Shown here one piece after another: positions 1,321 to 16,770 of a stretch of 17,384 nt of DNA (within the stretch, counting starts at the first letter, position 1; every line of letters starts with the position of its first letter). The DNA is from a virus (Duplodnaviria; Heunggongvirae; Uroviricota; Caudoviricetes). Below the pieces are notes generated by a model, which saw nothing but the letters and a program-made list of their open reading frames with translations, was not told where the DNA came from and searched no databases. Location: the IMG/VR virus record IMGVR_UViG_2657244971_000001; one strand, 5' to 3'. The position numbers were made by a program, and so were the translations under genes.

Positions 1321-1425
1321 GTTGAAGCCTGCTTTTTTATACTAAGTTGGCATTATAAAAAAGCATTGCTTATCAATTTGTTGCAACGAACAGGTCACTA
1401 TCAGTCAAAATAAAATCATTATTTG
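1321..1425. other. attL: lambda-type attachment site attL: bacterial B arm, 15-bp core GCTTTTTTATACTAA (1331-1345), then phage P' arm with IHF H' site (TATCAATTTGTTG, 1371-1383) and three Int arm-type sites (AGGTCACTAT 1392-1401, CAGTCAAAAT 1402-1411, AAAATCATTA 1412-1421)
   Basis: Sequence GAAGCCTGCTTTTTTATACTAAGTTGGCATTATAAAAAAGCATTGCTTATCAATTTGTTGCAACGAACAGGTCACTATCAGTCAAAATAAAATCATTATTTG matches the attB left arm fused to the lambda attP P' arm as I recall them; int ends inside the P' arm as in lambda. Confidence 0.9.
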
Positions 1426-2489: not shown

Positions 2490-2685
2490 TTCTGATCCTC
2501 TTCAAAAGGCTACCTGTTACTGGTCGATTTAAGTCAACCTTTACCGCTGATTCGTGGAACAGATATTCTCTTCCATCCTTAACCGGAGGAGGGAATATCC
2601 TGCATTCGCGCACCCATCGACGAACTGTTTCAAGGCTTCTTGGGCGTCGCTGGCGAGCGTTCCACTCCTGAAGTGTCAAGTACAT
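2467..2685 (-). CDS. xis: Excisionase, lambda Xis
   Basis: 72-aa ORF (MYLTLQEWNARQRRPRSLETVRRWVRECRIFPP...) overlapping the int start by 23 nt, as in lambda. Confidence 0.95.
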   Translation of the reverse strand: MYLTLQEWNARQRRPRSLETVRRWVRECRIFPPPVKDGREYLFHESAVKVDLNRPVTGSLLKRIRNGKKAKS

Positions 2686-2712
2686 CGCAAAGTCTCCGCA
2701 ATTACACGCAAG

Positions 2713-2733
2713 AAAAAACCGCCATCAGGCGGC
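2713..2733 (-). terminator. Rho-independent terminator candidate on the minus strand (RNA: GCCGCC-UGAU-GGCGGU followed by UUUUUU), between orf55 and xis
   Basis: Plus-strand AAAAAACCGCCATCAGGCGG; on the minus strand a 5-6 bp GC stem with 4-nt loop and U6 tract; the orf55 stop codon lies in the loop. Confidence 0.55.
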
Positions 2734-2892
2734 TTGGTGTTCTTTCAGTTCTTCAATTCGAATATTGGTTATGTCTGCATGTGCTATCTGCGCCCATATC
2801 ATCCAGTGGTCGTAGCAGTCGTTGATGTTCTCCGCTTCGATAACTCTGTTGAATGGCTCTCCATTCCATTCTCCTGTGACTCGGAAGTGCAT
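2725..2892 (-). CDS. Small lambda early-left ORF of 55 codons between xis and ea8.5 (hypothetical protein)
   Basis: Manually translated minus-strand ORF MHFRVTGEWNGEPFNRVIEAENINDCYDHWMIWAQIAHADITNIRIEELKEHQAA (55 aa); below the length cut-off of the supplied ORF track; position corresponds to the 55-codon ORF annotated in lambda. Confidence 0.5.
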   Translation of the reverse strand: MHFRVTGEWNGEPFNRVIEAENINDCYDHWMIWAQIAHADITNIRIEELKEHQAA

Positions 2893-2980
2893 TTATCATC
2901 TCCATAAAACAAAACCCGCCGTAGCGAGTTCAGATAAAATAAATCCCCGCGAGTGCGAGGATTGTTATGTAATATTGGGT

Positions 2981-3262
2981 TTAATCATCTATATGTTTTG
3001 TACAGAGAGGGCAAGTATCGTTTCCACCGTACTCGTGATAATAATTTTGCACGGTATCAGTCATTTCTCGCACATTGCAGAATGGGGATTTGTCTTCATT
3101 AGACTTATAAACCTTCATGGAATATTTGTATGCCGACTCTATATCTATACCTTCATCTACATAAACACCTTCGTGATGTCTGCATGGAGACAAGACACCG
3201 GATCTGCACAACATTGATAACGCCCAATCTTTTTGCTCAGACTCTAACTCATTGATACTCAT
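2981..3262 (-). CDS. ea8.5: Lambda Ea8.5 protein (function unknown)
   Basis: 93-aa ORF with Cys/His-rich C-terminus; size and position after xis match lambda ea8.5. Confidence 0.85.
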   Translation of the reverse strand: MSINELESEQKDWALSMLCRSGVLSPCRHHEGVYVDEGIDIESAYKYSMKVYKSNEDKSPFCNVREMTDTVQNYYHEYGGNDTCPLCTKHIDD

Positions 3263-3453
3263 TTATAAACTCCTTGCAATGTATGTCGTTTCAGCTAAAC
3301 GGTATCAGCAATGTTTATGTAAAGAAACAGTAAGATAATACTCAACCCGATGTTTGAGTACGGTCATCATCTGACACTACAGACTCTGGCATCGCTGTGA
3401 AGACGACGCGAAATTCAGCATTTTCACAAGCGTTATCTTTTACAAAACCGATC

Positions 3454-4002
3454 TCACTCTCCTTTGATGCGAATGCCAGCGTCAGACATCATATGCAGAT
3501 ACTCACCTGCATCCTGAACCCATTGACCTCCAACCCCGTAATAGCGATGCGTAATGATGTCGATAGTTACTAACGGGTCTTGTTCGATTAACTGCCGCAG
3601 AAACTCTTCCAGGTCACCAGTGCAGTGCTTGATAACAGGAGTCTTCCCAGGATGGCGAACAACAAGAAACTGGTTTCCGTCTTCACGGACTTCGTTGCTT
3701 TCCAGTTTAGCAATACGCTTACTCCCATCCGAGATAACACCTTCGTAATACTCACGCTGCTCGTTGAGTTTTGATTTTGCTGTTTCAAGCTCAACACGCA
3801 GTTTCCCTACTGTTAGCGCAATATCCTCGTTCTCCTGGTCGCGGCGTTTGATGTATTGCTGGTTTCTTTCCCGTTCATCCAGCAGTTCCAGCACAATCGA
3901 TGGTGTTACCAATTCATGGAAAAGGTCTGCGTCAAATCCCCAGTCGTCATGCATTGCCTGCTCTGCCGCTTCACGCAGTGCCTGAGAGTTAATTTCGCTC
4001 AC
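3454..4002 (-). CDS. ea22: Lambda Ea22 protein (coiled-coil protein, function unknown)
   Basis: 182-aa ORF; size, position and sequence as recalled for lambda Ea22. Confidence 0.85.
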   Translation of the reverse strand: MSEINSQALREAAEQAMHDDWGFDADLFHELVTPSIVLELLDERERNQQYIKRRDQENEDIALTVGKLRVELETAKSKLNEQREYYEGVISDGSKRIAKLESNEVREDGNQFLVVRHPGKTPVIKHCTGDLEEFLRQLIEQDPLVTIDIITHRYYGVGGQWVQDAGEYLHMMSDAGIRIKGE

Positions 4003-4220
4003 TTCGAACCTCTCTGTTTACTGATAAGTTCCAGATCCTCCTGGCAACTTGCACAAGTCCGACAACCCTGAACGGCCAAGCGTCTTCGTTCATCTATCGG
4101 ATCGCCACACTCACAACAATGAGTGGCAGATATAGCCTGGTGGTTCAGGCGGCGCATTTTTATTGCTGTGTTGCGCTGTAATTCTTCAATTTCTGATGCT
4201 GAATCAATGATGTCTGCCAT
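3999..4220 (-). CDS. TraR/DksA-type C4 zinc-finger protein (lambda Orf73-like RNA-polymerase-binding factor)
   Basis: 73-aa ORF with CxxC...CxxC motif (CCECGDPIDERRRLAVQGCRTCASC) typical of the TraR/DksA family; start overlaps the ea22 stop by 4 nt. Confidence 0.8.
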   Translation of the reverse strand: MADIIDSASEIEELQRNTAIKMRRLNHQAISATHCCECGDPIDERRRLAVQGCRTCASCQEDLELISKQRGSK

Positions 4221-4273
4221 CTTTCATTAATCCCTGAATTGTTGGTTAATACGCTTGAGGGTGAATGCGAATA

Positions 4274-4297
4274 ATAAAAAAGGAGCCTGTAGCTCCC
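4274..4297 (-). terminator. Rho-independent terminator candidate on the minus strand (RNA: GGGAGC-UACAG-GCUCCU followed by UUUUUU)
   Basis: Plus-strand AAAAAAGGAGCCTGTAGCTCC; hairpin plus U-tract in the direction of early-left transcription, between the orf61-position ORF and orf73. Confidence 0.5.
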
Positions 4298-4318
4298 TGA
4301 TGATTTTGCTTTTCATGT

Positions 4319-4630
4319 TCATCGTTCCTTAAAGACGCCGTTTAACATGCCGATTGCCAGGCTTAAATGAGTCGGTGTGAATCCCATCAGCGTTACCGTT
4401 TCGCGGTGCTTCTTCAGTACGCTACGGCAAATGTCATCGACGTTTTTATCCGGAAACTGCTGTCTGGCTTTTTTGATTTCAGAATTAGCCTGACGGGCAA
4501 TGCTGCGAAGGGCGTTTTCCTGCTGAGGTGTCATTGAACAAGTCCCATGTCGGCAAGCATAAGCACACAGAATATGAAGCCCGCTGCCAGAAAAATGCAT
4601 TCCGTGGTTGTCATACCTGGTCTCTCTCAT
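4319..4630 (-). CDS. Hypothetical protein at the lambda orf61 position, but 103 codons long here
   Basis: ATG at 4628-4630 overlapping the orf63 3' end by 20 nt, as expected for lambda orf61; the reading frame stays open for 103 codons instead of 61. Confidence 0.45.
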   Translation of the reverse strand: MRETRYDNHGMHFSGSGLHILCAYACRHGTCSMTPQQENALRSIARQANSEIKKARQQFPDKNVDDICRSVLKKHRETVTLMGFTPTHLSLAIGMLNGVFKER

Positions 4631-4802
4631 CTGCTTCTGCTTTCGCCACCATCATTTCCAGCTTTTGTGAAAGGGATGCGGCTAACGTATGAAATTCTTC
4701 GTCTGTTTCTACTGGTATTGGCACAAACCTGACTCCAATTTGAGCGAGGCTATGTGCCATCTCGATACTCGTTCTTAACTCAACGGGAGATGCTTTGTGC
4801 AT
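4611..4802 (-). CDS. Lambda Orf63 (hypothetical protein)
   Basis: 63-aa ORF; length and neighbourhood match lambda orf63. Confidence 0.7.
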   Translation of the reverse strand: MHKASPVELRTSIEMAHSLAQIGVRFVPIPVETDEEFHTLAASLSQKLEMMVAKAEADERDQV

Positions 4803-4957
4803 ACAGCTCCCCGTTTATTATTTATCTCCTCAGCCAGCCGCTGTGCTTTCAGGGGATTTCGGATAACAGAAAGGCCGGGAAATACCCAGCCTCGCTTCGT
4901 AACGGAGTAGACGAAAGTGATCGTGCCTACGCGGATATTATCGTGAGGATGTTTCAT
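4775..4957 (-). CDS. Lambda Orf60a (hypothetical protein)
   Basis: 60 codons from the ATG at 4955-4957 (the ORF track extends 2 codons upstream); start overlaps the exo stop by 4 nt. Confidence 0.6.
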
Positions 4958-5634
4958 CGCCATTGCTCCCCAAATACAAAACCAATTTCAGCCAGTGCCT
5001 CGTCCATTTTTTCGATGAACTCCGGCACCATCTCGTCAAAACTCGCTATATACTTTTCATTCCGCTCAATCACGACATAATGCAGGCCTTCACGCTTCAT
5101 ACGCGGGTCATAGTTGGCAAAGTACCAGGCATCTTTTCGCGTCACCCACATGCTGTACTGCACCTGGGCCATGTAAGCCGACTTTATGGCCTCGAAACCA
5201 CCGAGCCGGAATTTCATGAAATCCCGGGAGGTAAACGGGCATTTCAGCTCAAGGCCATTGCCGTCACTGCATAAACCATCGGGAGAGCAGGCGGTGCGCA
5301 TACTTTCGTCGCGATAGATGATCGGGGATTCAATAACATTTACGCCGGAAGTGAACTCAAACAGGGTTCTGGCGTCGTTCTCGTACTGTTTTCCCCAGGC
5401 CAGCGCTTTAGCGTTAACTTCCGGAGCCACACCGGTGCAAACCTCAGCTAGCAGGGTGTGGAAGTAGGACATTTTCATGTCAGGCCACTTCTTTCCTGAT
5501 CGGGGCTTTGCTATCACGTTGTGAACTTCTGAAGCGGTGATGACGCCGAGCCGTAATTTGTGCCATGCATCATCCCCCTGTTCGACAGCTCTCACGTCGA
5601 TCCCGGTACGCTGCAGGATAATGTCCGGTGTCAT
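4954..5634 (-). CDS. exo: Lambda exonuclease (Red-alpha, 5'-3' dsDNA exonuclease)
   Basis: 226-aa [43 protein letters not shown]... matching lambda Exo as recalled. Confidence 0.95.
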
Positions 5635-6011
5635 GCTGCCACCTTCTGCTCAGTGGCTTTCTGTTTCAGGAATCCAAGAGCTTTCACTGCTTCGGCCTGT
5701 GTCAGTTCTGACGATGCGCGAATGTCGCGGCGAAATATCTGGGAACAGAGCGGCAATAAGTCGTCATCCCATGTTTTATCCAGGGCGATCAGCAGAGTGT
5801 TAATCTCCTGCATGGTTTCATCGTTAATGGCTTTTTTGCTGGCCCCGTGGCGTTGCAAATGATCGATGCATAGCGATTCAAACAGGTGCTGGGGCAGGCT
5901 TTTTTCCATGTCGTCTGCCAGTTCTGCCTCTTTCTCTTCACGGGCGAGCTGCTGGTAGTGACGCGCCCAGCTCTGAGCCTCAAGACGATCCTGAATGTAA
6001 TAAGCGTTCAT
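5631..6011 (-). CDS. In-frame chimeric ORF: N-terminal ~62 aa like lambda Gam (short form, [43 protein letters not shown]) fused to C-terminal ~64 aa like lambda Bet ([60 protein letters not shown]); probable deletion derivative of gam-bet
   Basis: 126-aa ORF; good Shine-Dalgarno (AGGAG 9 nt upstream of the ATG at 6009-6011); stop overlaps the exo start exactly as the bet stop does in lambda. An in-frame TAA about 19 codons upstream of the ATG excludes a long-form Gam start. Confidence 0.75.
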
Positions 6012-6326
6012 GGCTGAACTCCTGAAAATGGCTGTGAAAATATCGCCCGCGAAATGCCAGGCTGATTAGGAAAACAGGAAAGGGGGGGTTAGTGATTCAG
6101 GCCGTTACCGCGTCCGTCGAGAAAAACTTCCACGAGCAAATCACTGGTATAAGTGCGCTCGATGCCGCGATGCAGATAAAGCCGTCCGCGTAAATTAGCT
6201 GATGCAGTCCAGGTAACTGTGTTAAGTTCTCGTTAACATTAGGGGTAACATAGGGAGTATAAGATAGTGGAATGCATCATTTTATTGTTGCGAAAATGAT
6301 CGAACCAGCTGGATATCGTGTATCAT

Positions 6327-8300
6327 ATGGAACCGATGATAACTTTCATGGAATGTCTCGGTATATATATGAAAATTAGACCACAGCAGCACCTAATTAA
6401 CATCCTGACTTCAACCAAACAACATCATCCAAATTTTACTCTTTTTCTTGGTGCAGGTGCTAGTATCTCAAGTGGTGTTGATAGTGCTGGTGGGATGATA
6501 AGGCGCTGGAGAGATGCTTACACTCTAATGTATGGAGAAGATGCTCTCAAAAAACAAGTTTGGTACGATAAAGATAATGAGTATTCAGAGCTTTTTGAAG
6601 CATTATATGATCAACCAACTCAAAGAAGAGAATTTATTGAAAGTTGTATTACCGCAGCTAAACCATCTTGGGGATACGTTTATCTCACAAATCTATTGGA
6701 TAAAGGCCATTTTAATACAATTTTTACGACTAACTTCGATGATTTAGTCAATGAAGCTTGCTTTACCTTTTCTAATAATCTGAGACCAATAGTGTGTGCC
6801 CACGATTCAAGTATCAACAGCATACGTTTAACCACAGCTCGGCCAAAAATAATAAAATTACATGGTGATTTTTTATTTGACAATATCAAGAATACTATAA
6901 GGGAGCTTGAGTCACTTGAAGATAACATGAGGGCCAAATTTAGACAGTTTGCAACTGAATTTGGCATGATCGTTATTGGGTACTCGGGACACGACCGTTC
7001 AATTATGGATACTCTCAATACGTTATTGCATTCCGGTAGTTGTTTTCCTCATGGGATTTATTGGTGTATCTGTGACTCAGACACTGAAAAACTTTCTGAG
7101 CAACTTAAAAATCTGGCCCGCTTTCCTCATTTTCATCTTATTAAAATTAATGGATTTGATGAGTTCATGGCTGAATTACATTACGCATTAGGCTGTAATT
7201 TGCAGCAAGAGGTAGTAGAGCCATACTCTGCATTATCTAATAAACTAGATAGATATTTCTCTATAGCTGAAGAAGATGACGCAGATGTCCAGCATGAGAT
7301 TATTAAAAGAGATATGAATAATCTTGCTGATCATGTCAGGAGAGTGAATACAGTAAGCCAGTTTGTAAAAAAAATAAAAGTACTTCTTTCAGAGAAAGAC
7401 TCATCGTTAGATGATAATTCGATCACTAAATCTTTAGAAATAATGTTAAAGGAAACTAAATTTGCTGGTTCTCCTGAGGGGATTCATTTTTATAATACCC
7501 CCAATTATTTGATTGCAAACTCTGCATTTCGTGCTGGAGAGTATAATGAATGTGTAGAATATGCTACTAAACATCTGGCTAATGGGAAATCTCTCGAAAC
7601 AGAAGTATTAATACTTCGTTCCTATATTCATTTGGATAATGATTCTGAAATACAAAAGTCAATAGAAAGAATAACAAGTTATAACAAAATGAATGATGGT
7701 GAAGTTGGCAAGCTTGTAAATGGATTAGTGGACTTAATGGATGCTAAAAAATTCAAAATTGCGAATAGCCTTATGGACATACTTGAATCCCGAACAATAC
7801 CGTCTAAACATAAGCAGTTATTGCTTATAAATAGAGTTCTTTGCAACAAATTACAAAAGCAGCCGCTTTCAGCAAAACAGCAACAAGAGCTTGAGGAAGT
7901 GCTGAATGAAGTGATAGATAAAAACGAAGCTTGGCTTGCTCTGGGGGCTGCTATACTTTTAGAAAAATGGGACATTGCTGAAGAAGTGCTATCAGCATTA
8001 GATGAAACTGAGATAGTTACAATATTGACGCAATCAATGCCGATTTTTGACTTGATTTCTACAGAGTTTTATGAAAAGGTCAAGTTAGTAGCTATAGAGC
8101 GTGGTTATAACGTTTCATTCGAAGAAGAAACGGAGTTACCAGAGGTTGTTCCTGCTGAGGATGAGACTCAAAGTCTCAGTCCTGATGTGAGAGAAATACC
8201 TACAGATAAAAAGAAAGCCATAACTCACAAATCAGCAGACAATGATGAGGCATTTGATGGATTACGCACTGGCGAAGAAAGTATAAGCAAACCAGCTTAA
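6327..8300 (+). CDS. SIR2-family (SIR2_2-like, defence-associated sirtuin type) protein with an uncharacterised alpha-helical C-terminal half; candidate NAD+-hydrolysing anti-phage effector. Start ambiguous: GTG 6318 or ATG 6327/6336/6348/6369
   Basis: 660-codon open frame. Motifs seen: FLGAGAS (nt 6444-6464, Gly-rich dinucleotide-binding loop), TTNFDDLVNEA (Asn codon at 6732-6734), KLHGDF (His codon at 6861-6863), IGYSGHD. Asn/His spacing (43 residues) is comparable to the catalytic N/H pair of ThsA and DSR-type sirtuins. AT-rich codon usage by eye, unlike the flanking lambda genes. Confidence 0.8.
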   Translation: MEPMITFMECLGIYMKIRPQQHLINILTSTKQHHPNFTLFLGAGASISSGVDSAGGMIRRWRDAYTLMYGEDALKKQVWYDKDNEYSELFEALYDQPTQRREFIESCITAAKPSWGYVYLTNLLDKGHFNTIFTTNFDDLVNEACFTFSNNLRPIVCAHDSSINSIRLTTARPKIIKLHGDFLFDNIKNTIRELESLEDNMRAKFRQFATEFGMIVIGYSGHDRSIMDTLNTLLHSGSCFPHGIYWCICDSDTEKLSEQLKNLARFPHFHLIKINGFDEFMAELHYALGCNLQQEVVEPYSALSNKLDRYFSIAEEDDADVQHEIIKRDMNNLADHVRRVNTVSQFVKKIKVLLSEKDSSLDDNSITKSLEIMLKETKFAGSPEGIHFYNTPNYLIANSAFRAGEYNECVEYATKHLANGKSLETEVLILRSYIHLDNDSEIQKSIERITSYNKMNDGEVGKLVNGLVDLMDAKKFKIANSLMDILESRTIPSKHKQLLLINRVLCNKLQKQPLSAKQQQELEEVLNEVIDKNEAWLALGAAILLEKWDIAEEVLSALDETEIVTILTQSMPIFDLISTEFYEKVKLVAIERGYNVSFEEETELPEVVPAEDETQSLSPDVREIPTDKKKAITHKSADNDEAFDGLRTGEESISKPA

Positions 8301-8336
8301 TAATTGAACAGTGATTAACTGAGAGTGAAGGGGCTT

Positions 8337-8420
8337 ATGAAGCAGAAAAATATCAACAACCAAAGCAGAATTTCTGAAGAAAGTAAGAAAAAAATCAAGG
8401 AAATGCTTAAAAAACAATAA
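8337..8420 (+). CDS. Lysine-rich 27-codon micro-ORF (MKQKNINNQSRISEESKKKIKEMLKKQ) immediately downstream of the SIR2-family gene; speculative
   Basis: ATG at 8337 preceded by GAAGGGG Shine-Dalgarno-like sequence about 5 nt upstream; ends 3 nt before the terminator hairpin; too short for the ORF track. Confidence 0.3.
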   Translation: MKQKNINNQSRISEESKKKIKEMLKKQ

Positions 8421-8423
8421 ATT

Positions 8424-8447
8424 AAAAGACCCCGCAAGGGGTCTTTT
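8424..8447. terminator. Strong rho-independent terminator (AAAAGACCCC-GCAA-GGGGTCTTTT), potentially bidirectional
   Basis: Perfect 10-bp stem with 4-nt loop, flanked by an A-run on one side and a T-run on the other. Confidence 0.75.
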
Positions 8448-9031
8448 AATAACTATTGGCCAGTTTTTAATGAAATCATGCTTAATACAATGTGATTTTT
8501 TTCACTTGTCGTAGTGCCGATCTGATTGCCATCGTCACAGGTACTCAGTAGCGAAAAAATACGTCTACTGGGTACCAATTATCCTCAATGAGAAGTGCAG
8601 CGCGCTCCAATAAAAAGGTGATTCACCGACAGCGAACTTTGTACACTCGCTTGGTTATGGCGAGCAGGTGATGCTAACCGCCTGCCAGAATGTCACTCCA
8701 CTTCCTCAAGTATCTGAGCGACGTGAAGCCGGTGGCTTGACTTACATCGAGCAAAAATATTTCCTGGCTCACAATAGGGTGCGAGCAATCGATTCAGAAC
8801 GGTATTAGAGCTGCTAATGATCCTTCATATTGCGCCTAAATCCACAAAATTGATTTTCAATAATCAACCCGCCATAATCATCTCATCGGAGCCTGAACAA
8901 CTCCGGTGACTTCTGCGCTAAACGGGGACGTTTATGCGCACACACAATCCAAACTCACTTCTCCCGTCACAGATGCAGAAATGCACCTGCAATTCTTTGC
9001 ATCTAACGTTTGACCTCTGCGGAGGTGAAGC

Positions 9032-9487
9032 GTGAACCTCTCACAAGACGGCATCAAATTACATCGCGGCAACTTCACCGCTATCGGCCAGCAGATCCAG
9101 CCTTATCTGGAGGAAGGCAAATGCTTTCGCATGGTGCTTAAACCGTGGCGAGAGAGACGCAGTCTTTCCCAGAATGCACTCAGCCACATGTGGTACAGCG
9201 AAATCAGTGAATACCTCATCAGCAGGGGGAAATCGTTCGCTACCGCAGCATGGGTAAAAGATGCTCTCAAACACACATACCTCGGTTATGAAACCAAGGA
9301 CCTGGTTGATGTCGTAACCGGCGAAATCACTACTATCCAGTCGTTACGCCATACCTCCGATCTTGATACCGGAGAGATGTATGTCTTCCTGTGTAAGGTT
9401 GAAGCCTGGGCGATGAATATTGGCTGTCACCTGACTATTCCGCAGAGCTGCGAGTTCCAGCTGCTCCGCGACAAGCAGGAGGCGTAA
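9032..9487 (+). CDS. ninB: NinB-family recombination protein (DLP12 YbcN-like)
   Basis: 151-aa ORF starting at GTG with GGAGGTG Shine-Dalgarno; contains an [13 protein letters not shown] segment reminiscent of the lambda NinB RSLDQNRKLW motif; first gene of a nin-type block. Confidence 0.75.
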
Positions 9488-10436: not shown

Positions 10437-10521
10437 AGTCAGAGATAACAATCAACTAATACTGTTTTGTTGATTTTTGCTTGTAATTGGCGTTCTGGTC
10501 TGAGTTTTGTGGAGTAAGTTG

Positions 10522-10899
10522 ATGCGTGATATTCAGATGGTTCTTGAGCGTTGGGGAGCGTGGGCGGCTAATAATCATGAAGATGTGACCTGGTCGTCCA
10601 TTGCCGCCGGTTTTAAGGGATTAATTCCTTCAAAAGTAAAATCTCGCCCACAATGTTGTGACGATGACGCGATGATCATTTGCGGGTGCATGGCCCGTCT
10701 GAAAAAGAACAACAGCGATTTGCATGATTTATTGGTGGACTATTATGTCGGCGGCATGACTTTTATGGCGCTTGCACGTAAGCATGGGCGATCTGATTGT
10801 TGGGTTGGCAGGATGCTTCAGAAAGCTGAGGGCGTAGTGGAGGGTATGCTGATGGTGTTGGATCTCCGATTGGAGATGGATGCTGATTGTTCGAAATAA
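10522..10899 (+). CDS. quuD: Late-gene antiterminator Q (phage 82 / DLP12 QuuD type)
   Basis: ATG at 10522 with GGAG 7 nt upstream; protein [33 protein letters not shown]...[16 protein letters not shown] matches the QuuD type as recalled; followed by a promoter-like element and terminator. Confidence 0.85.
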
Positions 10900-10911: not shown

Positions 10912-10940
10912 TTGCTGTCTGATTGTCATTAGTCTAACAT
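10912..10940 (+). promoter_or_regulatory. Candidate late promoter pR' (-35 TTGCTG, 17-bp spacer, -10 TAACAT) downstream of Q
   Basis: Hexamers read directly from the sequence; the position immediately after Q and before a terminator mirrors the lambdoid pR'-qut-tR' arrangement. Not verifiable without experiment. Confidence 0.35.
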
Positions 10941-11000
10941 TTTAAATGTTGGAATCGCAACGTAGTTATTATCATATAACAGCTTGTTTCCTGATTTAGC

Positions 11001-11027
11001 CAGCCTCCCCAAAGGCTGGTTTTTTTC
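11001..11027 (+). terminator. Rho-independent terminator (CCAGCC-TCCCCAAA-GGCTGG followed by T7), likely tR'-type terminator of the short late leader RNA
   Basis: 6-bp GC-rich stem followed by TTTTTTT on the plus strand. Confidence 0.6.
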
Positions 11028-11054
11028 TAATAAGTATTATTTCGGGTAGGGATT

Positions 11055-11579
11055 TTATTGTTTAACCCATAATAATTCATTGACATTGAATCCCAACTTT
11101 TGAGCGGTTCGCACATAGTCTGCTTTTACTTTATCTGGAATAGTTGGGGTCCTTGCCAGAATCCATAGGTATTCTCTGTTCGGACCACTGACAAGAGCAT
11201 ACTTATACTCATCATCCAGTTTGATTACATTATAGCCACCATAGAAGGGGCCAAAAAACGAAACCTTCAATGCTGCAGTTTTAGTATCTCCAGTAAAGTA
11301 TGCTTTACCTTCGCTCTCGCTCCATTTATTTTTCGTTGGATCGTATCCACGGTTAAGTACACGAATCCCTCCGTCGTTCCGTTTTCCATAAGTAGCGCTG
11401 ACCTGTTCCAGACCACGTTCGAACCGGTTCTCGAGGCGAGCTATTTCATACCATTTTCCGAGGTAGCGGTTGGCGTCAAAATTTGTAATCGGCTGCACAC
11501 CTTTAGGTGGTGTCGGGGCCTTACATGCTATAAGAGTGAAAGAGAGTGCAATGCCAGTCAACACAGGCCATAACTTCAT
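11055..11579 (-). CDS. Blc-like bacterial lipocalin, outer-membrane lipoprotein (moron cargo)
   Basis: 174-aa ORF with lipoprotein signal and lipobox (..FTLIAC); strong similarity to E. coli Blc as recalled (NFDANRYLGKWYEIARLENRFERGLE...KVSFFGPFYGGYNVI...YLWILARTP); AGGA Shine-Dalgarno about 8 nt upstream. Confidence 0.85.
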   Translation of the reverse strand: MKLWPVLTGIALSFTLIACKAPTPPKGVQPITNFDANRYLGKWYEIARLENRFERGLEQVSATYGKRNDGGIRVLNRGYDPTKNKWSESEGKAYFTGDTKTAALKVSFFGPFYGGYNVIKLDDEYKYALVSGPNREYLWILARTPTIPDKVKADYVRTAQKLGFNVNELLWVKQ

Positions 11580-11611
11580 AATAAATCCTGTACTTTTGAT
11601 AGTTGAGAGTA

Positions 11612-11661
11612 AGTATGAAAGATAGATGATTACGACCGATCACTTAAAGAACTTTCATACT
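11612..11661. repeat. Perfect 10-bp inverted repeat AGTATGAAAG ... CTTTCATACT separated by 30 nt, in the divergent intergenic region between the lipocalin gene and the DUF523/DUF1722 gene
   Basis: Arms at 11612-11621 and 11652-11661 are exact reverse complements. Confidence 0.6.
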
Positions 11662-11771
11662 ATATTAGGAATAGTCCATAACAGAAAAATTGTCAGTGAT
11701 GACGCCAGAAAGGCAATTTATTCCGTGCACTACACAGTTTATGTGTTAATGAATTAGTCAAGGGGGAGAAT

Positions 11772-12731
11772 ATGATAAAAAAACCTGTGATTGGAATCAG
11801 CGGTTGTTTGGCCGGTTCTGCTGTTCGTTTTGATGGTGGTCACAAAAGAGCTGACTTTTTAATGGACAAATTAGTGGAATGGGTAACATTCAGACCAGTA
11901 TGTCCGGAAATGGCTATAGGGCTGCCAGTTCCGCGTCCTGCTCTACGTCTTGTGCGCTCGACGCAAGGAAATATACGGATGTGTTTCAGCCACGACCAGA
12001 ATGAGGATGTGACAGAGAGAATGACAGAGTTTAGTCGTTCTTATATGGACAAATTAAAGGATGTATCGGGGTTTGTGGTTTGTGCTAAATCTCCCAGCTG
12101 TGGCATGGAGCGCGTGCGTGTCTATGATGAAAATGGTAATCGAGGTCGTAAAGATGGAGTGGGACTATTTACGAGCACTTTGATGGAAAAGTTTTCCTGG
12201 CTACCGGTTGAAGAGGATGGGCGATTACATGATCCAGTGCTTCGTGAGAATTTTGTTGAAAGAGTTTTTGCTTTGCATGAGCTCAATCACCTTTACAAGG
12301 AGAAATTATCAAGAAGAGAGTTATTAGCTTTTCATAGTCGTTATAAGCTTCAGTTGTTGGCGCATAGTCAGGCAGGCTATAAAGATATGGGACCATTTGT
12401 GGCTGCAATACACGAGTGGGCGGACCTTGAATCATACTTTGAGGTGTATCGTGATAAGCTGATGGCGATTCTCAGAAAACCTGCATCACGTAAAAATCAC
12501 ACGAATGTGCTGATGCATATACAGGGGTATTTTAGTAACTACTTAAGTACACGCCAGCGTAAAGAGTTGAGCGAGGTTATACTTAACTATCGTTCTGGCA
12601 CATTACCTCTTCTTGCGCCGTTGACTCTGCTGAAGCATTATCTGGGTGAGTATCCTAATGATTACTTGCTTACACAGAATTACTTCGATCCCTATCCGGA
12701 CGAACTGGCTCTAAGACTGATGGTAAATTAA
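11772..12731 (+). CDS. DUF523 (TudS-like 4Fe-4S thiouracil-desulfidase fold) / DUF1722 (YbgA-like) fusion protein
   Basis: 319-aa ORF with AGGGGGAG Shine-Dalgarno; N-terminus GISGCLAG..C..C-type cysteines typical of the DUF523 family, C-terminal half resembling YbgA-type DUF1722. Confidence 0.75.
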   Translation: MIKKPVIGISGCLAGSAVRFDGGHKRADFLMDKLVEWVTFRPVCPEMAIGLPVPRPALRLVRSTQGNIRMCFSHDQNEDVTERMTEFSRSYMDKLKDVSGFVVCAKSPSCGMERVRVYDENGNRGRKDGVGLFTSTLMEKFSWLPVEEDGRLHDPVLRENFVERVFALHELNHLYKEKLSRRELLAFHSRYKLQLLAHSQAGYKDMGPFVAAIHEWADLESYFEVYRDKLMAILRKPASRKNHTNVLMHIQGYFSNYLSTRQRKELSEVILNYRSGTLPLLAPLTLLKHYLGEYPNDYLLTQNYFDPYPDELALRLMVN

Positions 12732-13082
12732 TTGTATGCGATATCATCCAAAAGGATGAGTTCCTGCATGCAGGATATTTACAATCGTAAAAACTACACT
12801 ATGATACCCAGAGTGTCAGTTTGTATAAAAACTCTGTTTACGCTGAAGAAACAATTGAGATGCAACTTAAAGTTGGTAAACATGCCAGTCAAAATATATA
12901 ATATTATGATTCCACGCAGCTATATATAATATAACGGATTGGTTTAATAATTTGTCTTTGTGAGTTAAATACATAATTTTATACTTGTGATGCAATGAAA
13001 TTTTCCTTATTGTTGAACTGGCGAATATTGATTTTCCACCTATACTTACCTGGTGTAACCCCAATGATATCAGGTGGATAAT

Positions 13083-13814
13083 ATGCCATACATATGTTCT
13101 ATCATTTTGGTGTTGAACTCGTTTGATGTCCGAATTGGTAAAGAAGATATTTTGTTTAAAAAAGGAAGTGCTGTTCTCATTGATTACAATTTAAAAGATT
13201 TTTTTTCATCAAATATAGATCATGTAATGATCGTAGATGTTGAAGAGAAAACAGTTAATGATTTCTTTAAAAGCAACACACTCTCACCTTTTTCTGTAAG
13301 AAGGTTTTATCCGGCATACTTGATGGTGGAATGTGAAGATTTTTCATTGTTAAAGAACTTGATTGCATGCTTGAATTGTGATGGCAGAACTGTGGATTTT
13401 GTTAGAAATCAAATATCACTTGCATGTCTTGCTATCTTATCTTCAGAGAAAATAGTGCAAAGTTTTTTATTTGGATGTCTTAATAGTTTAGGAAGTAAAG
13501 TTAAGGCTATTATTCACACGGATATATCTGCGGCATGGAGACTTTGTGATATATCTTCAAGACTGTATCTGAGTGAAAGTCTGTTAAAAAGAAAATTAAA
13601 GCACGAAGGCTTATCATTTAGTAAGTTAATTCTTGAAGAGCGAATGGTGATGGCGGAAAGGTTATTAAGCTACAATTTATATTCTGTTGGAAAAGTTGCT
13701 GAGATATGCGGTTATGAAAACACGTCATATTTTGTAAGTGTTTTCAGAAGGTATTTTTGTGTTCCTCCCCATCAATATTCATCAAGATTTTTTTTAGAAA
13801 AAGACATGATGTAA
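13083..13814 (+). CDS. AraC/XylS-family transcriptional regulator (AppY/GadX/Rns-like small activator) in a strongly AT-rich islet
   Basis: C-terminal double helix-turn-helix signature (..LYLSESLLKRKLKHEGLSFSKLILEERMVMAERLL...VGKVAEICGYENTSYFVSVFRRYF); ATG 13083 preceded by AGGTGG; the ORF track starts at an upstream GTG (13074). Confidence 0.8.
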   Translation: MPYICSIILVLNSFDVRIGKEDILFKKGSAVLIDYNLKDFFSSNIDHVMIVDVEEKTVNDFFKSNTLSPFSVRRFYPAYLMVECEDFSLLKNLIACLNCDGRTVDFVRNQISLACLAILSSEKIVQSFLFGCLNSLGSKVKAIIHTDISAAWRLCDISSRLYLSESLLKRKLKHEGLSFSKLILEERMVMAERLLSYNLYSVGKVAEICGYENTSYFVSVFRRYFCVPPHQYSSRFFLEKDMM

Positions 13815-14001: not shown

Positions 14002-14217
14002 ATGAAATCCATGGATAAGTTAACAACGGGCATTGCCTACGGCACCTCCGCAGGCAGTGCTGGCTACTGGTTTTTACAGCTGCTCGATAAAGTCACGCCC
14101 TCACAGTGGGCAGCAATAGGTGTGCTGGGTAGCTTGGTATTTGGCCTGCTGACGTACCTGACAAACCTTTATTTCAAGATTAAAGAAGATAAGCGCAAGG
14201 CTGCGAGAGGTGAATAA
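14002..14217 (+). CDS. essD: Class II holin / pinholin (phage 21 S21 / DLP12 EssD type) with dual-start motif MKSM
   Basis: 71-aa [63 protein letters not shown]... matching S21/EssD as recalled; two predicted TM helices. Confidence 0.9.
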
Positions 14218-14714
14218 TGCCTCCATCATTACGAAAAGCCGTTGCTGCTGCTATTGGTGGCGGAGCAATTGCTATAGCATCAGTGTTAATCACTGGCCCA
14301 AGTGGTAACGATGGTCTGGAAGGTGTCAGCTACATACCATACAAAGATATCGTTGGCGTATGGACTGTATGTCACGGGCATACAGGAAAAGACATCATTC
14401 CCGGTAAAACGTATACCGAAGCAGAATGCAAAGCCCTCCTGAATAAAGACCTTGCCACGGTAGCCAGACAAATTAACCCGTACATCAAAGTCGATATACC
14501 GGAAACAACGCGCGGCGCTCTTTACTCGTTCGTCTATAACGTGGGCGCAGGCAATTTCAGAACATCTACTCTTCTTCGCAAAATAAACCAGGGCGATATC
14601 AAGGGCGCATGTGACCAGCTACGTCGCTGGGCATACGCTGGCGGTAAGCAATGGAAAGGCCTGATGACTCGTCGTGAGATTGAGCGTGAGGTCTGTTTGT
14701 GGGGGCAACAATGA
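14217..14714 (+). CDS. rrrD: SAR endolysin (signal-anchor-release lysozyme, R21 / RrrD type)
   Basis: 165-aa ORF with Gly/Ala-rich N-terminal SAR helix ([20 protein letters not shown]) followed by a lysozyme domain; start overlaps the holin stop by 1 nt. Confidence 0.9.
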
Positions 14715-15175
14715 GCAGGGTAACCGCGATTATCTCCGCTCTGGTTATCTGCATCATCGTCTGCCTGTCATGGGCTGTTAATCATTACCGTGATAATGCA
14801 ATCGCCTACAAAGAACAGCGCGATAACAAGGCCAGTGAACTGGAGAAGGCGAACGCCACCATTACTGACATGCAGATGCGTCAGCGTGATGTTGCTGCGC
14901 TCGATGCAAAATACACGAAGGAGTTAGCTGATGCGAAAGCTGAAAATGATGTTCTGCGTGATGATGTTGCCGCTGGTCGTCGTCGGTTGCACATCAAAGC
15001 AGTCTGTCAGTCAGTGCGTGAAGCCACCACCGCCTCCGGCGTGGATAATGCAGCCTCCCCCCGACTGGCAGACACCGCTGAACGGGATTATTTCACCCTC
15101 CGGGAACGACTGGTAATGATGCAGGCCCAACTTGAAGGTGCTCAGCAATACATAACCGAGCAGTGTTTAAAGTAA
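14711..15175 (+). CDS. rzpD: Rz inner-membrane spanin (i-spanin)
   Basis: N-terminal TM helix followed by a coiled-coil-rich periplasmic domain; ATG at 14711 overlaps the endolysin stop. Confidence 0.85.
14931..15116 (+). CDS. rzoD: Rz1 outer-membrane lipoprotein spanin (o-spanin), embedded in the +1 frame of Rz
   Basis: 61-aa ORF with lipobox (VVGC) and proline-rich mature segment ([16 protein letters not shown]); the embedded Rz/Rz1 architecture is classic. Confidence 0.8.
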
Positions 15176-15312
15176 AATCTTAACTACAATATGATTCATT
15201 TTGATGATTGTTTCATAAGGAACAGTGAAGTAAGATCTAAGAGGAGTTAAATTTTATACAGTATAATCATAATATTGCAGCAAGGTGGTTATAATTGAAA
15301 GAATATTTAGAT

Positions 15313-16770
15313 ATGAATACATCTCATGTAAGAGTTGTTACTCATATGTGTGGGTTCCTGGTTTGGCTCTATAGTCTTTCAATGTTGCCACCAATGGTTG
15401 TAGCATTGTTTTATAAAGAAAAAAGCCTGTTCGTTTTCTTTATAACTTTCGTTATATTTTTTTGCATTGGTGGCGGAGCGTGGTATACAACTAAGAAATC
15501 TGGCATTCAATTACGTACCCGTGATGGGTTTATTATAATTGTAATGTTTTGGATTTTGTTTTCTGTTATTAGTGCATTCCCTTTATGGATTGACTCAGAA
15601 CTTAATTTAACGTTCATTGATGCTCTGTTTGAAGGGGTTTCTGGAATAACAACAACAGGAGCAACTGTAATTGATGATGTTAGTTCATTACCTCGGGCAT
15701 ATTTGTACTATCGGTCACAGTTAAATTTTATAGGTGGTTTAGGAGTTATTGTTCTGGCGGTTGCTGTATTGCCATTATTGGGTATTGGTGGTGCAAAGCT
15801 TTATCAGTCAGAAATGCCGGGGCCATTTAAGGATGACAAACTCACTCCCCGCCTGGCCGATACGTCACGGACACTGTGGATAACTTATTCTTTATTAGGT
15901 ATTGCTTGTATTGTCTGTTATAGACTTGCAGGAATGCCTTTGTTTGATGCTATTTGTCACGGGATTTCCACAGTTTCGCTTGGTGGTTTCTCAACTCATA
16001 GCGAGAGTATCGGATATTTTAATAACTATTTGGTTGAGCTGGTGGCTGGTTCTTTTTCCCTGCTATCGGCTTTCAACTTCACTCTTTGGTATATTGTTAT
16101 TAGCAGGAAAACGATAAAACCTTTAATCAGAGATATTGAACTTCGTTTCTTTCTGTTAATAGCCTTAGGGGTGATCATTGTTACCTCTTTCCAGGTCTGG
16201 CATATAGGTATGTATGACTTGCATGGAAGTTTTATTCATTCGTTTTTTCTTGCCAGTTCCATGCTCACTGATAATGGTTTAGCTACGCAGGATTATGCAA
16301 GTTGGCCCACGCACACGATAGTGTTTTTGCTGTTGTCAAGTTTCTTTGGGGGATGTATAGGTTCAACTTGTGGTGGAATTAAGTCACTTCGATTTCTTAT
16401 ACTTTTCAAACAAAGCAAACACGAGATAAATCAGCTTTCTCATCCCAGAGCGTTGTTGAGTGTAAATGTAGGAGGGAAGATAGTTACAGATCGTGTAATG
16501 AGGTCTGTATGGAGTTTCTTTTTTCTTTATACTCTCTTCACGGTGTTTTTTATACTGGTGTTAAATGGTATGGGATATGATTTTCTTACATCATTTGCAA
16601 CAGTGGCTGCATGTATTAATAATATGGGATTAGGTTTTGGGGCTACTGCATCGTCATTCGGAGTGCTTAATGACATTGCAAAATGTTTAATGTGCATAGC
16701 TATGATTCTTGGTCGCCTTGAAATTTATCCTGTTATTATATTGTTTTCAGGTTTTTTTTGGCGCTCCTAA
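15313..16770 (+). CDS. trkG: TrkH/TrkG-family potassium uptake membrane protein (Rac prophage TrkG-like moron)
   Basis: 485 codons from ATG 15313 (the ORF track starts at an upstream TTG); polytopic membrane protein matching E. coli TrkG as recalled; AT-rich; sits directly after Rz/Rz1, as in Rac. Confidence 0.9.
   Translation: MNTSHVRVVTHMCGFLVWLYSLSMLPPMVVALFYKEKSLFVFFITFVIFFCIGGGAWYTTKKSGIQLRTRDGFIIIVMFWILFSVISAFPLWIDSELNLTFIDALFEGVSGITTTGATVIDDVSSLPRAYLYYRSQLNFIGGLGVIVLAVAVLPLLGIGGAKLYQSEMPGPFKDDKLTPRLADTSRTLWITYSLLGIACIVCYRLAGMPLFDAICHGISTVSLGGFSTHSESIGYFNNYLVELVAGSFSLLSAFNFTLWYIVISRKTIKPLIRDIELRFFLLIALGVIIVTSFQVWHIGMYDLHGSFIHSFFLASSMLTDNGLATQDYASWPTHTIVFLLLSSFFGGCIGSTCGGIKSLRFLILFKQSKHEINQLSHPRALLSVNVGGKIVTDRVMRSVWSFFFLYTLFTVFFILVLNGMGYDFLTSFATVAACINNMGLGFGATASSFGVLNDIAKCLMCIAMILGRLEIYPVIILFSGFFWRS

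What the first reader, a model, noticed from the sequence alone, without database searches (positions are those of the whole stretch)
11772..12731. DUF523-DUF1722 fusion protein (TudS-like Fe-S desulfidase fold) as late-region cargo
DUF523 is the fold of 2-thiouracil / thio-nucleotide desulfidases (established for the TudS family), here fused to a YbgA-like DUF1722 domain and given its own strong ribosome-binding site. A thionucleotide-modifying enzyme on a prophage could act on thiolated tRNA or nucleotides of the host or of incoming phages; the function of the fusion is unknown.
Basis: partly seen in the sequence, partly recalled or inferred. Interest (0 to 1): 0.45.

Follow-up and report, generated by a model that had tools for sequence, protein, structure and literature searches.

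The report
Prophage-borne tRNA 4-thiouridine desulfidase RudS
The gene is real and intact, but it is no longer of unknown function: it encodes RudS, an iron-sulfur enzyme that strips the UV-sensing 4-thiouridine mark from tRNA, and a 93%-identical copy from the same phage gene block was assayed in 2024; why lambda-like phages carry it is still open.

Summary
ORF 11772-12731 (+) encodes a 319-aa protein with a TudS/DUF523 domain (aa 7-149, E 3e-40) and a DUF1722 domain (aa 192-309, E 2e-40). It lies between the Q antiterminator and the holin/endolysin/Rz genes of a defective lambdoid prophage next to ybhC.

"Function unknown" is outdated. TudS-DUF1722 fusions were named RudS, tRNA 4-thiouridine (s4U8) desulfidases, in NAR 2024 (PMC11417400). 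One enzyme tested there, RudS_vir of phage 1H12, sits in the same gene block and is 93% identical without gaps. The three cluster cysteines (C12, C44, C110) and the positions corresponding to the catalytic Glu, Arg and two Ser (E46, R55, S107, S109) are present and conserved.

The gene is under purifying selection in phages (dN/dS about 0.11). It travels as a fixed module: Q, blc (reverse), rudS, a PatE/AppY-like AraC regulator, then lysis genes. It occurs in 1136 of 5426 complete E. coli genomes, although the paper says E. coli lacks RudS. blc and rudS are also neighbours in Enterobacter and Citrobacter chromosomes, so they were probably captured together.

The benefit to phage or lysogen is untested. 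Verdict: already known biochemistry, ordinary cargo, with one modestly interesting open question.

The parts
11772..12731 (+). rudS: 319-aa TudS-DUF1722 fusion, a tRNA 4-thiouridine desulfidase
   Evidence: ORF; Pfam domains; 298/319 identical, no gaps, to the assayed RudS_vir of phage 1H12; 318/319 identical to phage IdasGreatGrand; phrog_3275 over the full length.
11790..12218 (+). TudS (DUF523) catalytic domain, aa 7-149. Holds cluster ligands C12, C44, C110 and residues E46, R55, S107, S109.
   Evidence: Pfam PF04463. Residues present and invariant or near-invariant in 120 enterobacterial homologues. Ligand positions are the same as in the paper's Table 1 for RudS_vir. The AF2 model matches only TudS structures 6z92/6z93/6z96/6zw9, probability 1.00, TM 0.64-0.68.
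12345..12698 (+). DUF1722 helical domain, aa 192-309 (tRNA anticodon-arm binding in the published RudS model). Holds S239 and R240.
   Evidence: Pfam PF08349; 49% identical to E. coli K-12 YbgA over aa 164-315; all-helical in the model with no solved structural relative; role of the domain from PMC11417400.
11760..11768 (+). Shine-Dalgarno-like AAGGGGGAG, 3 nt upstream of the ATG
   Evidence: Read directly from the sequence; conserved in the phage alleles.
10507..10899 (+). QuuD-type late antiterminator Q; always linked to the cargo block
   Evidence: Pfam PF06530. 88% nt identity to DLP12 quuD. Q plus its downstream segment occurs in 1080 E. coli genomes, about the same set as rudS. In the phage collection it occurs only in the same 12 phages.
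10998..11021 (+). GC-rich hairpin followed by a T run: candidate tR' terminator after Q and/or bidirectional terminator of blc
   Evidence: Terminator scan: 9-bp stem, 5 GC pairs. RNA fold of 10940-11035 gives -26.2 kcal/mol, z = -4.2. Assignment to tR' is an inference.
11055..11579 (-). blc-like outer-membrane lipocalin lipoprotein, divergent from rudS
   Evidence: Pfam Lipocalin_2. NCBIfam Blc subfamily, 313.8 bits against a cut-off of 267. Homologues about 80% identical lie divergently upstream of chromosomal rudS in Enterobacter, Leclercia and C. sedlakii.
12732..12830 (+). Structured segment just 3' of rudS: hairpin TCATCC-aaaa-GGATGA, the 12-nt palindrome CCTGCATGCAGG, and a second hairpin. 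No T run follows.
   Evidence: RNA fold gives z = -5.2. The palindrome is kept in the 1H12 allele through two compensatory changes. Function unknown.
13083..13814 (+). AraC-family regulator of the YdeO/AppY/PatE group, 32% GC; third cargo gene
   Evidence: Pfam HTH_18/HTH_AraC. Best NCBIfam match is YdeO, below its cut-off. 31% identical to AppY. 53% identical to the AraC regulator of the EDL933 OI-8 prophage. Absent from all chromosomal rudS loci examined. GC.
14002..15175 (+). Lysis cassette (P21-type holin, lysozyme, Rz) that closes the cargo slot
   Evidence: Pfam.

Best explanation
The ORF encodes a RudS enzyme. The N-terminal TudS domain holds a [4Fe-4S] cluster on C12, C44 and C110, and the fourth iron binds the sulfur of 4-thiouridine. 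E46, oriented by R55, S107 and S109, activates water, and the thiocarbonyl is hydrolysed to give uridine and sulfide. The C-terminal DUF1722 helical domain grips the anticodon arm, so that s4U8 of intact tRNA is the substrate rather than free thiouracil. The cellular outcome is erasure of s4U8, the near-UV chromophore of tRNA, which shortens the UVA-induced growth delay.

In phages the gene belongs to a fixed module: Q, blc (reverse strand), rudS, a PatE/AppY-like regulator, then the lysis genes. In intact phages rudS lies on the late-transcript strand between Q and the holin. It should therefore be transcribed with the lysis genes under Q antitermination, as stx is in Stx phages. In this window the prophage has lost its immunity and replication genes, so any expression must come from a local promoter or from a Q supplied in trans.

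Shown by others for close relatives: the chemistry and the tRNA s4U loss. Shown here: membership, conservation, linkage and prevalence. Inferred: the transcription pattern, and the reading that the three cargo genes form a stress-tolerance conversion cassette (envelope, near-UV, acid).
For: Both domains are matched over the full profile length. The protein is 93% identical without gaps to RudS_vir of phage 1H12, which lowered tRNA s4U when expressed in E. coli. The 1H12 gene sits in the same module. It is 74% identical to a Salmonella RudS-like protein. C12, C44 and C110 match the ligand positions in Table 1 of PMC11417400. E46, R55, S107, S109, R19, F20, S239 and R240 are present and invariant or nearly so in 120 homologues; mutating their RudS_KT counterparts abolished or reduced activity. 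The predicted N-terminal domain matches only TudS crystal structures, and the low-confidence loop 13-27 matches the mobile loop described for RudS_KT. dN/dS is 0.106 between the phage alleles. All 80 IMG/VR copies are intact, with 22 protein alleles, none touching a catalytic residue. The module order is constant in three prophage backgrounds and in two groups of free phages. RudS_KT expression diminished UVA growth delay in E. coli (abstract; discussion).
Against: No assay exists for this allele. RudS_vir was the least tRNA-active enzyme for its protein level and gave the shortest lag on 4-thiouracil, so the phage clade may be shifted towards small substrates. The phage clade has replaced conserved arginines (R71C, R175Y, R255S, R267S). 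All published activity comes from overexpression, and native expression from a prophage is unknown. No convincing sigma-70 promoter was found upstream of rudS (best match 9 of 12). pR' was not located. The hairpin after Q could be only the blc terminator. Deletion of thiI mildly inhibits lambda growth, so s4U loss is not obviously good for a lambdoid phage. The mapping of RudS_KT residue numbers onto this protein uses the cysteine offsets, not a direct alignment.
Confidence: 0.85

Rival explanations
1. The phage enzyme mainly works as a TudS-like salvage desulfidase on free 4-thiouracil or 4-thio-UMP released by tRNA turnover, feeding uracil nucleotides to the infected cell. Its tRNA activity would be secondary.
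For: RudS_vir gave the shortest lag of all RudS proteins on 4-thiouracil in a pyrF auxotroph. Its tRNA desulfidation was lower than RudS_ST at a comparable protein level. The phage clade has lost four conserved arginines.
Against: None of the RudS proteins supported growth the way TudS does, and RudS_vir still lowered tRNA s4U significantly. The DUF1722 domain is kept under purifying selection, and S239 and R240, the positions corresponding to the tRNA-contacting S243 and R244 of RudS_KT, are invariant. A salvage enzyme would not need that domain.
Confidence: 0.07
2. The gene's selected role is in phage-phage or phage-host conflict rather than UV physiology. By lowering s4U8, or by acting on another thiolated RNA, a lysogen would hamper superinfecting phages or evade a tRNA-directed defence.
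For: The thiI deletion strain, which lacks s4U8, shows mildly but significantly reduced lambda replication. The Q-to-lysis slot often holds conflict or conversion genes. The same defective prophage carries a SIR2-type defence candidate. Overexpressing RudS_KT halved tRNA-Tyr and tRNA-Ser levels.
Against: RudS has no PADLOC match and no experimental link to defence. The thiI effect is small and has other explanations, such as sulfur flux, according to the authors. Chromosomal relatives sit in light or stress operons with MerR-type regulators. The carrying phages are themselves lambdoid and would be hurt as well.
Confidence: 0.05
3. The gene is a silent, decaying passenger in a defective prophage and has no function here.
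For: This prophage lacks cI, cro, O and P and has a gam-bet fusion. No complete E. coli genome holds the whole window. The cargo is AT-rich, at 43% GC for rudS and 32-34% in the flanking intergenic regions, and could be H-NS silenced.
Against: The reading frame is intact and 26 of 80 viral-contig copies encode the identical protein. dN/dS is 0.11-0.28. 1064 of the 1136 E. coli genomes with a match cover at least 80% of the gene. The gene is also carried by free, plaque-forming phages.
Confidence: 0.03

Closest known systems
RudS_vir, gp66 (H3V29_gp66) of Escherichia phage 1H12 (NC_049947), assayed in Jamontas et al., NAR 2024
   Same: Both are 319 aa and 93% identical with no gaps. They share ligands C12, C44 and C110 and sit in the same Q-blc-rudS-AraC-holin-endolysin-Rz module.
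   Different: There are 21 amino-acid differences, none at a residue tested in the paper. The host prophage here is defective and sits at the lambda attachment site next to ybhC, with TrkG after Rz. 1H12 is a complete phage with Bor after Rz.
RudS_KT (Pseudomonas putida PP_0741) and RudS_ST (Salmonella STM1389, ORF319), the chromosomal RudS enzymes with in vitro and mutagenesis data
   Same: The two-domain architecture is the same. Counterparts of the Cys ligands, the catalytic Glu, Arg and two Ser, and the DUF1722 Ser-Arg pair are all present. The protein is 74% identical to a Salmonella RudS-like protein.
   Different: Chromosomal genes sit in light- or stress-responsive contexts with MerR-type regulators or photolyase. 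Here no MerR is present and an AraC-type regulator follows instead. The phage clade carries 16 substitutions at otherwise conserved positions, including four arginine losses. A direct alignment with RudS_KT was not made.
TudS (stand-alone DUF523; PDB 6Z92, 6Z96), a [4Fe-4S] thiouracil / 4-thio-UMP desulfidase
   Same: The fold and the cluster site are shared. Foldseek gives probability 1.00 and TM 0.64-0.68 at 27% identity. The sequence alignment covers the first two cysteines.
   Different: TudS has no DUF1722 domain, does not change tRNA s4U in vivo, and uses 2-thiouracil as well. This protein has the longer loops described for RudS.
E. coli K-12 YbgA (b0707), a stand-alone DUF1722 protein upstream of the photolyase gene phr
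   Same: 49% identical over aa 164-315. NCBI names the phage gene 'YbgA family protein'.
   Different: YbgA lacks the catalytic domain and had no effect on s4U. The score against the YbgA equivalog model is 190.8 bits, below its cut-off of 237.
Cargo ('moron') genes in the Q-to-lysis slot of lambdoid phages, such as stx in Stx phages and nmpC after quuD in DLP12
   Same: The position is the same, immediately after a Q antiterminator and before the holin. The Q type is the same as in DLP12. The GC content is lower than in the flanking phage genes.
   Different: The cargo here is a tRNA-modification eraser together with a lipocalin and a regulator. The comparisons with stx and nmpC rest on general knowledge, not on a test made here.

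Membership tests
RudS (TudS-DUF1722 tRNA s4U desulfidase) | N-terminal TudS/DUF523 domain | tested here: met
   PF04463 at aa 7-149, E 3.1e-40, full-length profile. The predicted structure matches TudS crystal structures only.
RudS (TudS-DUF1722 tRNA s4U desulfidase) | C-terminal DUF1722 domain fused in the same polypeptide | tested here: met
   PF08349 at aa 192-309, E 1.9e-40, full-length profile; eight-helix C-terminal half in the model.
RudS (TudS-DUF1722 tRNA s4U desulfidase) | Three cysteines that hold the [4Fe-4S] cluster | tested here: met
   C12, C44 and C110 are the positions given for RudS_vir and RudS_ST in Table 1 of PMC11417400. They are identical in the gapless alignment and invariant in 120 homologues.
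RudS (TudS-DUF1722 tRNA s4U desulfidase) | Catalytic Glu, the Arg that orients it, and two Ser (RudS_KT E51, R60, S111, S113) | tested here: met
   E46, R55, S107 and S109 are present. All are invariant except S109, which is found in 118 of 120. The mapping uses the offsets of the flanking cysteines, not a direct alignment with RudS_KT.
RudS (TudS-DUF1722 tRNA s4U desulfidase) | tRNA-contacting residues (RudS_KT R24, Y25, N26, S243, R244) | tested here: inconclusive
   R19, F20, S239 and R240 are present and invariant, and Y25F was as active as wild type in the paper. Position 21 is Asp rather than Asn in all enterobacterial homologues. C-terminal numbering is by offset only.
RudS (TudS-DUF1722 tRNA s4U desulfidase) | Removes s4U from tRNA | not testable with these tools
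   Shown by others for the 93%-identical RudS_vir and five other RudS proteins by LC-MS/MS after overexpression. Not shown for this allele.
RudS (TudS-DUF1722 tRNA s4U desulfidase) | Host makes s4U (ThiI present) | not tested
   thiI is not in the window. E. coli is known to have ThiI and s4U8, and the host is E. coli by DNA identity.
TudS (stand-alone thiouracil / 4-thio-UMP desulfidase) | Single-domain protein of about 150-170 aa acting on free thiouracils, including 2-thiouracil | tested here: not met
   The protein is 319 aa with a second domain. No RudS supported growth on 2-thiouracil. It shares the fold and chemistry but is not a member of the stand-alone group.
YbgA (NCBIfam NF007549 equivalog) | Score at or above the curated cut-off of 237 bits, stand-alone DUF1722 | tested here: not met
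   190.8 bits, matching only aa 160-315; 49% identity to K-12 YbgA.
Lambdoid late-region cargo (moron) | Lies between the Q antiterminator and the lysis genes, and is dispensable for the phage life cycle | tested here: met
   Gene order is Q 10507-10899, cargo 11055-13814, holin 14002. DLP12 carries a closely related Q without this cargo.
Lambdoid late-region cargo (moron) | Own promoter and terminator that allow expression from the repressed prophage | tested here: inconclusive
   Only weak promoter-like matches lie upstream of rudS (9 of 12), no more than expected by chance. The stable 3' structure has no T run. The hairpin at 10998-11021 may serve blc, pR', or both.

The most novel reading that the evidence does not exclude
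The phage copy may not be a mere passenger. Together with the lipocalin Blc and the PatE/AppY-like regulator it could form a lysogenic-conversion cassette carried by about one E. coli strain in five. At native expression it would lower tRNA s4U8 and so reset the host's near-UV growth-delay and stringent response. It might also reduce the growth of superinfecting lambdoid phages, as a thiI deletion does. That would make it the first tRNA-modification eraser shown to be used by a temperate phage to reprogram its host.
Probability: 0.2. Interest if true: 0.55.

Novelty: already known. Interest (0 to 1): 0.27.

Why it matters
The enzymology is settled, so little changes there. Two points have practical value.

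First, public annotation calls this gene 'YbgA family protein' or 'hypothetical protein', which hides a characterised tRNA-modification eraser. It can be re-annotated as RudS.

Second, the RudS paper states that E. coli lacks RudS. Yet 1136 of 5426 complete E. coli genomes (21%) carry this prophage copy. E. coli strains may therefore differ in tRNA s4U content, in UVA growth delay, and in behaviour in s4U-based labelling or crosslinking experiments, depending on prophage content.

If the gene is expressed in lysogens or during lytic growth, it would be a clear case of a phage editing the host's tRNA modification state. That question is now directly testable with an existing free phage (IdasGreatGrand or 1H12).

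Tried and rejected
- **PDB by sequence.** Single-sequence and profile searches found only TudS and aligned only residues 6-66 and 6-58, so the third cysteine could not be placed that way. It was placed through the gapless alignment with RudS_vir and the paper's table instead.
- **Structure job.** It was rerun without that row.
- **Regulatory site in the blc-rudS intergenic region.** Comparing it with the Citrobacter chromosomal loci gave nothing: the region is conserved among phage alleles but unrelated to the chromosomal ones.
- **tR' versus blc terminator.** I looked for phages with this Q but other cargo. The test failed because this Q allele and its downstream segment occur only together with the cargo. 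DLP12 quuD similarity stops just before the Q stop codon.
- **Other features at the locus.** Rfam at gathering thresholds and a tRNA scan of the whole window found nothing. PADLOC has no model matching RudS, Blc or the AraC-like protein.
- **Decaying pseudogene.** Considered and rejected on intactness and dN/dS.
- **Later literature.** A search for papers on phage RudS after 2024 found only reviews that cite the 2024 paper.

Full report
**Observation.** Pfam matches both halves over the full profile length. PF04463 (2-thiouracil desulfurase, the former DUF523) covers aa 7-149 at E 3.1e-40. PF08349 (DUF1722) covers aa 192-309 at E 1.9e-40. NCBIfam sees only the C-terminal half as YbgA-like, below that model's cut-off (190.8 against 237 bits). 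A purine-rich AAGGGGGAG run ends 3 nt before the ATG.

**Setting.** The window is a lambdoid prophage at the lambda attachment site. It starts with ybhC and a lambda-type integrase, followed by exo, NinB, a YbcO-type nuclease and RusA. Then comes a Q antiterminator of the QuuD/PF06530 type at 10507-10899. Three cargo genes follow, and then a P21-type holin, a lysozyme, Rz and TrkG. The cargo genes are:
- a reverse-oriented Blc-type lipocalin lipoprotein at 11055-11579 (NCBIfam Blc subfamily above cut-off);
- the gene in question;
- an AraC-family regulator at 13083-13814.

'Late-region cargo' is therefore correct. The prophage itself is defective. No cI, cro, cII, O or P reading frame exists, and gam is fused to the 3' end of bet. 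A 660-aa SIR2-like gene fills the place of the immunity region. No complete E. coli genome contains the whole window (best coverage 79%).

**What the gene is.** The statement that the fusion's function is unknown is out of date. Jamontas et al. (Nucleic Acids Res 2024, PMC11417400) named TudS-DUF1722 fusions RudS. They showed that six of them remove 4-thiouridine from E. coli tRNA in vivo, by 4.7- to 26-fold. They also showed that purified RudS_KT does so in vitro, that the stand-alone TudS and YbgA do not, and that RudS_KT expression diminishes UVA-induced growth delay.

One of the six was RudS_vir, gp66 of Escherichia phage 1H12. Phage 1H12 carries the same block: Q, Blc, gp66, an AraC-like gene, holin, endolysin and Rz. 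Its protein is 298/319 identical to the window protein with no gaps. A free phage isolated from swamp mud, IdasGreatGrand, carries a copy that is 318/319 identical.

**Active site.** The paper gives Cys12, Cys44 and Cys110 as the cluster ligands of RudS_vir and RudS_ST. The window protein has cysteines at those positions. Using the offsets of the flanking cysteines, I mapped the other RudS_KT residues onto this protein:
- the catalytic residues E51, R60, S111 and S113 correspond to E46, R55, S107 and S109;
- the loop residues R24, Y25 and N26 correspond to R19, F20 and D21;
- the DUF1722 residues S243 and R244 correspond to S239 and R240.

All are present, and all are invariant or nearly so in an alignment of 120 enterobacterial homologues. 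In the paper, mutating the RudS_KT counterparts abolished activity (E51, R60, S111, S113) or reduced it, and Y25F was as active as wild type. This mapping is by offset and not by direct alignment with RudS_KT.

An AlphaFold2 model (mean pLDDT 78) has an alpha/beta N-terminal domain and an all-helical C-terminal half. Foldseek against the PDB returns only the TudS structures 6z92, 6z93, 6z96 and 6zw9 (probability 1.00, TM 0.64-0.68, 27% identity), and nothing for the helical half. The low-confidence loop at 13-27 coincides with the mobile loop that the authors propose opens the site for tRNA.

**Is the phage copy maintained?** Between the window allele and the 1H12 allele there are 22.5 non-synonymous and 50.5 synonymous differences, giving dN/dS of 0.106. 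Of 153 IMG/VR viral contigs with a relative, the 80 best are all this clade. All 80 are intact. They comprise 22 protein alleles, none touching a ligand or catalytic residue, and 26 are identical to the window protein. That set is biased towards full-length matches.

In complete E. coli genomes the gene is found in 1136 of 5426, and 1064 of those cover at least 80% of it. It is almost always chromosomal, with up to three copies per genome. The 2.9-kb three-gene block is in 1152 genomes, 999 of them near-complete. The paper's remark that E. coli lacks RudS holds for laboratory strains, not for the species.

**Module and origin.** The order Q, blc (reverse), rudS, AraC-like, lysis genes recurs in at least three backgrounds:
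- a Qin-like prophage;
- a complete lambda-like prophage with P, ren, NinB and iss;
- this ybhC-adjacent remnant.

It also recurs in the free phages. The Q allele with its downstream hairpin is found in 1080 genomes, essentially the rudS set, and in the phage collection only in the same 12 phages. Q and the cargo therefore move as one unit.

Outside this clade the closest proteins are chromosomal RudS of Citrobacter at 76-77% identity, with nothing in between. Synonymous sites are saturated against them. In most Enterobacter and Leclercia chromosomes a Blc homologue about 80% identical lies divergently upstream of rudS, with a MerR/MlrA-like regulator and a transthyretin-like gene between them. 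In Citrobacter sedlakii blc and rudS are directly adjacent, as in the phage. The pair was therefore probably captured together from an enterobacterial chromosome, without the MerR regulator.

The AraC-like gene is absent from all chromosomal loci examined and has 32% GC. It is 31% identical to the DLP12 regulator AppY and 53% identical to the AraC regulator of the EDL933 OI-8 prophage, the locus the literature calls PatE, an acid-resistance activator.

**How it most likely works here.** The chemistry is that of RudS and TudS, as established by others: non-redox hydrolysis of the thiocarbonyl at the free iron of a [4Fe-4S] cluster, with DUF1722 providing tRNA recognition.

Regulation is inferred. 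A strong hairpin with a T run lies 100 nt after Q (10998-11021; fold energy -26.2 kcal/mol, z = -4.2). It is a candidate tR', but it could equally be, or also be, the blc terminator.

In intact phages the lysis genes are known to depend on Q-antiterminated late transcription. rudS and the regulator lie between Q and the holin on the same strand, so they should be part of that transcript, like stx in Stx phages.

In this window Q probably cannot be expressed in the normal way, because the early region is gone. No convincing sigma-70 promoter precedes rudS. A highly structured segment follows the stop codon (z = -5.2), and its palindrome is kept in 1H12 by two compensatory changes. Its role is unknown.

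**Why a phage carries it.** This is open. Three readings were weighed.
- **Lysogenic conversion.** The three cargo genes could form a stress cassette (envelope lipocalin, near-UV sensor eraser, acid-resistance-type regulator). This fits the chromosomal association of RudS with light-responsive operons.
- **Phage-phage or phage-host conflict.** The mild inhibition of lambda in a thiI deletion suggests this, but nothing else supports it.
- **Salvage of free thiouracils.** RudS_vir had the shortest lag on 4-thiouracil, had relatively low tRNA activity, and belongs to a clade that has lost four conserved arginines. Against this, the DUF1722 domain is clearly under selection.

**Verdict.** The thing is a member of an already characterised family, and a near-identical orthologue from the same phage module has been assayed. 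Novelty is low. The residual interest lies in the unexplored biology of the phage copy and in its high prevalence in E. coli.

Noticed in passing
window 6318-8300 (+): A 660-aa SIR2_2-domain protein, 36% GC, sits where the immunity region of a lambdoid prophage would be. Its best PADLOC matches are pAgo-associated SIR2 models (1.6e-62) and candidate system PDC-S65. It matches phrog_23427 over the full length, but 5600-8850 has no near-DNA match in the phage collection. It is a likely prophage-borne defence gene.
   Followed up: partly
window 1419-9032: The prophage is defective. There is no cI, cro, cII, O or P ORF. ORF 5631-6011 (-) reads as the N-terminus of lambda Gam fused to the C-terminal end of Bet. 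No complete E. coli genome holds the whole window; the best coverage is 79%.
   Followed up: partly
window 13083-13814 (+): The AraC-family regulator next to rudS belongs to the YdeO/AppY/GadX group. It is 31% identical to AppY and 53% identical to the AraC regulator of the EDL933 OI-8 prophage (PatE locus). It is absent from chromosomal rudS loci and missing from 5 of 80 viral contigs. It may control acid-resistance genes or the cargo itself.
   Followed up: partly
window 12732-12830 (+): An unusually stable RNA structure lies right after the rudS stop codon (z = -5.2). It includes a perfect 12-nt palindrome, CCTGCATGCAGG, at 12764-12775, which is preserved in the 1H12 allele through two compensatory changes. 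No T run follows, so it is not a classical terminator.
   Followed up: partly
window 11772-12731, protein positions 71, 175, 204, 255, 267 and others: The phage clade differs from 115 chromosomal enterobacterial RudS proteins at 16 positions that are at least 90% conserved. The changes include R71C, R175Y, R255S, R267S and R204K. None of these positions was mutated in the RudS paper. They might relate to the lower tRNA activity reported for RudS_vir.
   Followed up: no
L013 4018-6960 and other Enterobacter/Leclercia loci; L009 5292-6960: A conserved chromosomal arrangement is present: blc-like lipocalin (reverse), a MerR/MlrA-like regulator, a transthyretin-like gene, then rudS. In C. sedlakii blc and rudS are directly adjacent and a pseudouridine synthase gene follows. 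C. amalonaticus instead has a CFA-synthase-like gene, DUF3833, then rudS.
   Followed up: partly
window 15295-16770 (+): A TrkH-family potassium transporter (TrkG) follows Rz directly, at 38% GC. From my own knowledge this is the arrangement in the Rac prophage of K-12. It is another cargo gene.
   Followed up: no
L055 and L060 (contigs of a 'Candidatus Nanosynbacter' MAG): These short MAG contigs carry this E. coli prophage block (Q, Blc, RudS, AraC-like, holin, lysozyme) at 94-100% protein identity. They are almost certainly binning contamination.
   Followed up: no
P0002 (403 aa) and P0006 (500 aa): These are single-record proteins in which RudS appears fused to a GGDEF domain (PF00990, E. 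coli) or to DUF3833. They could be real fusions or gene-calling artefacts. DUF3833 is the upstream neighbour of rudS in C. amalonaticus.
   Followed up: no
H33, H13, H14 (E. coli genomes): In some strains the block is interrupted by IS elements: IS1 inside rudS, which splits it into separately annotated DUF523 and YbgA genes, and IS2 within the 2.9-kb block.
   Followed up: no
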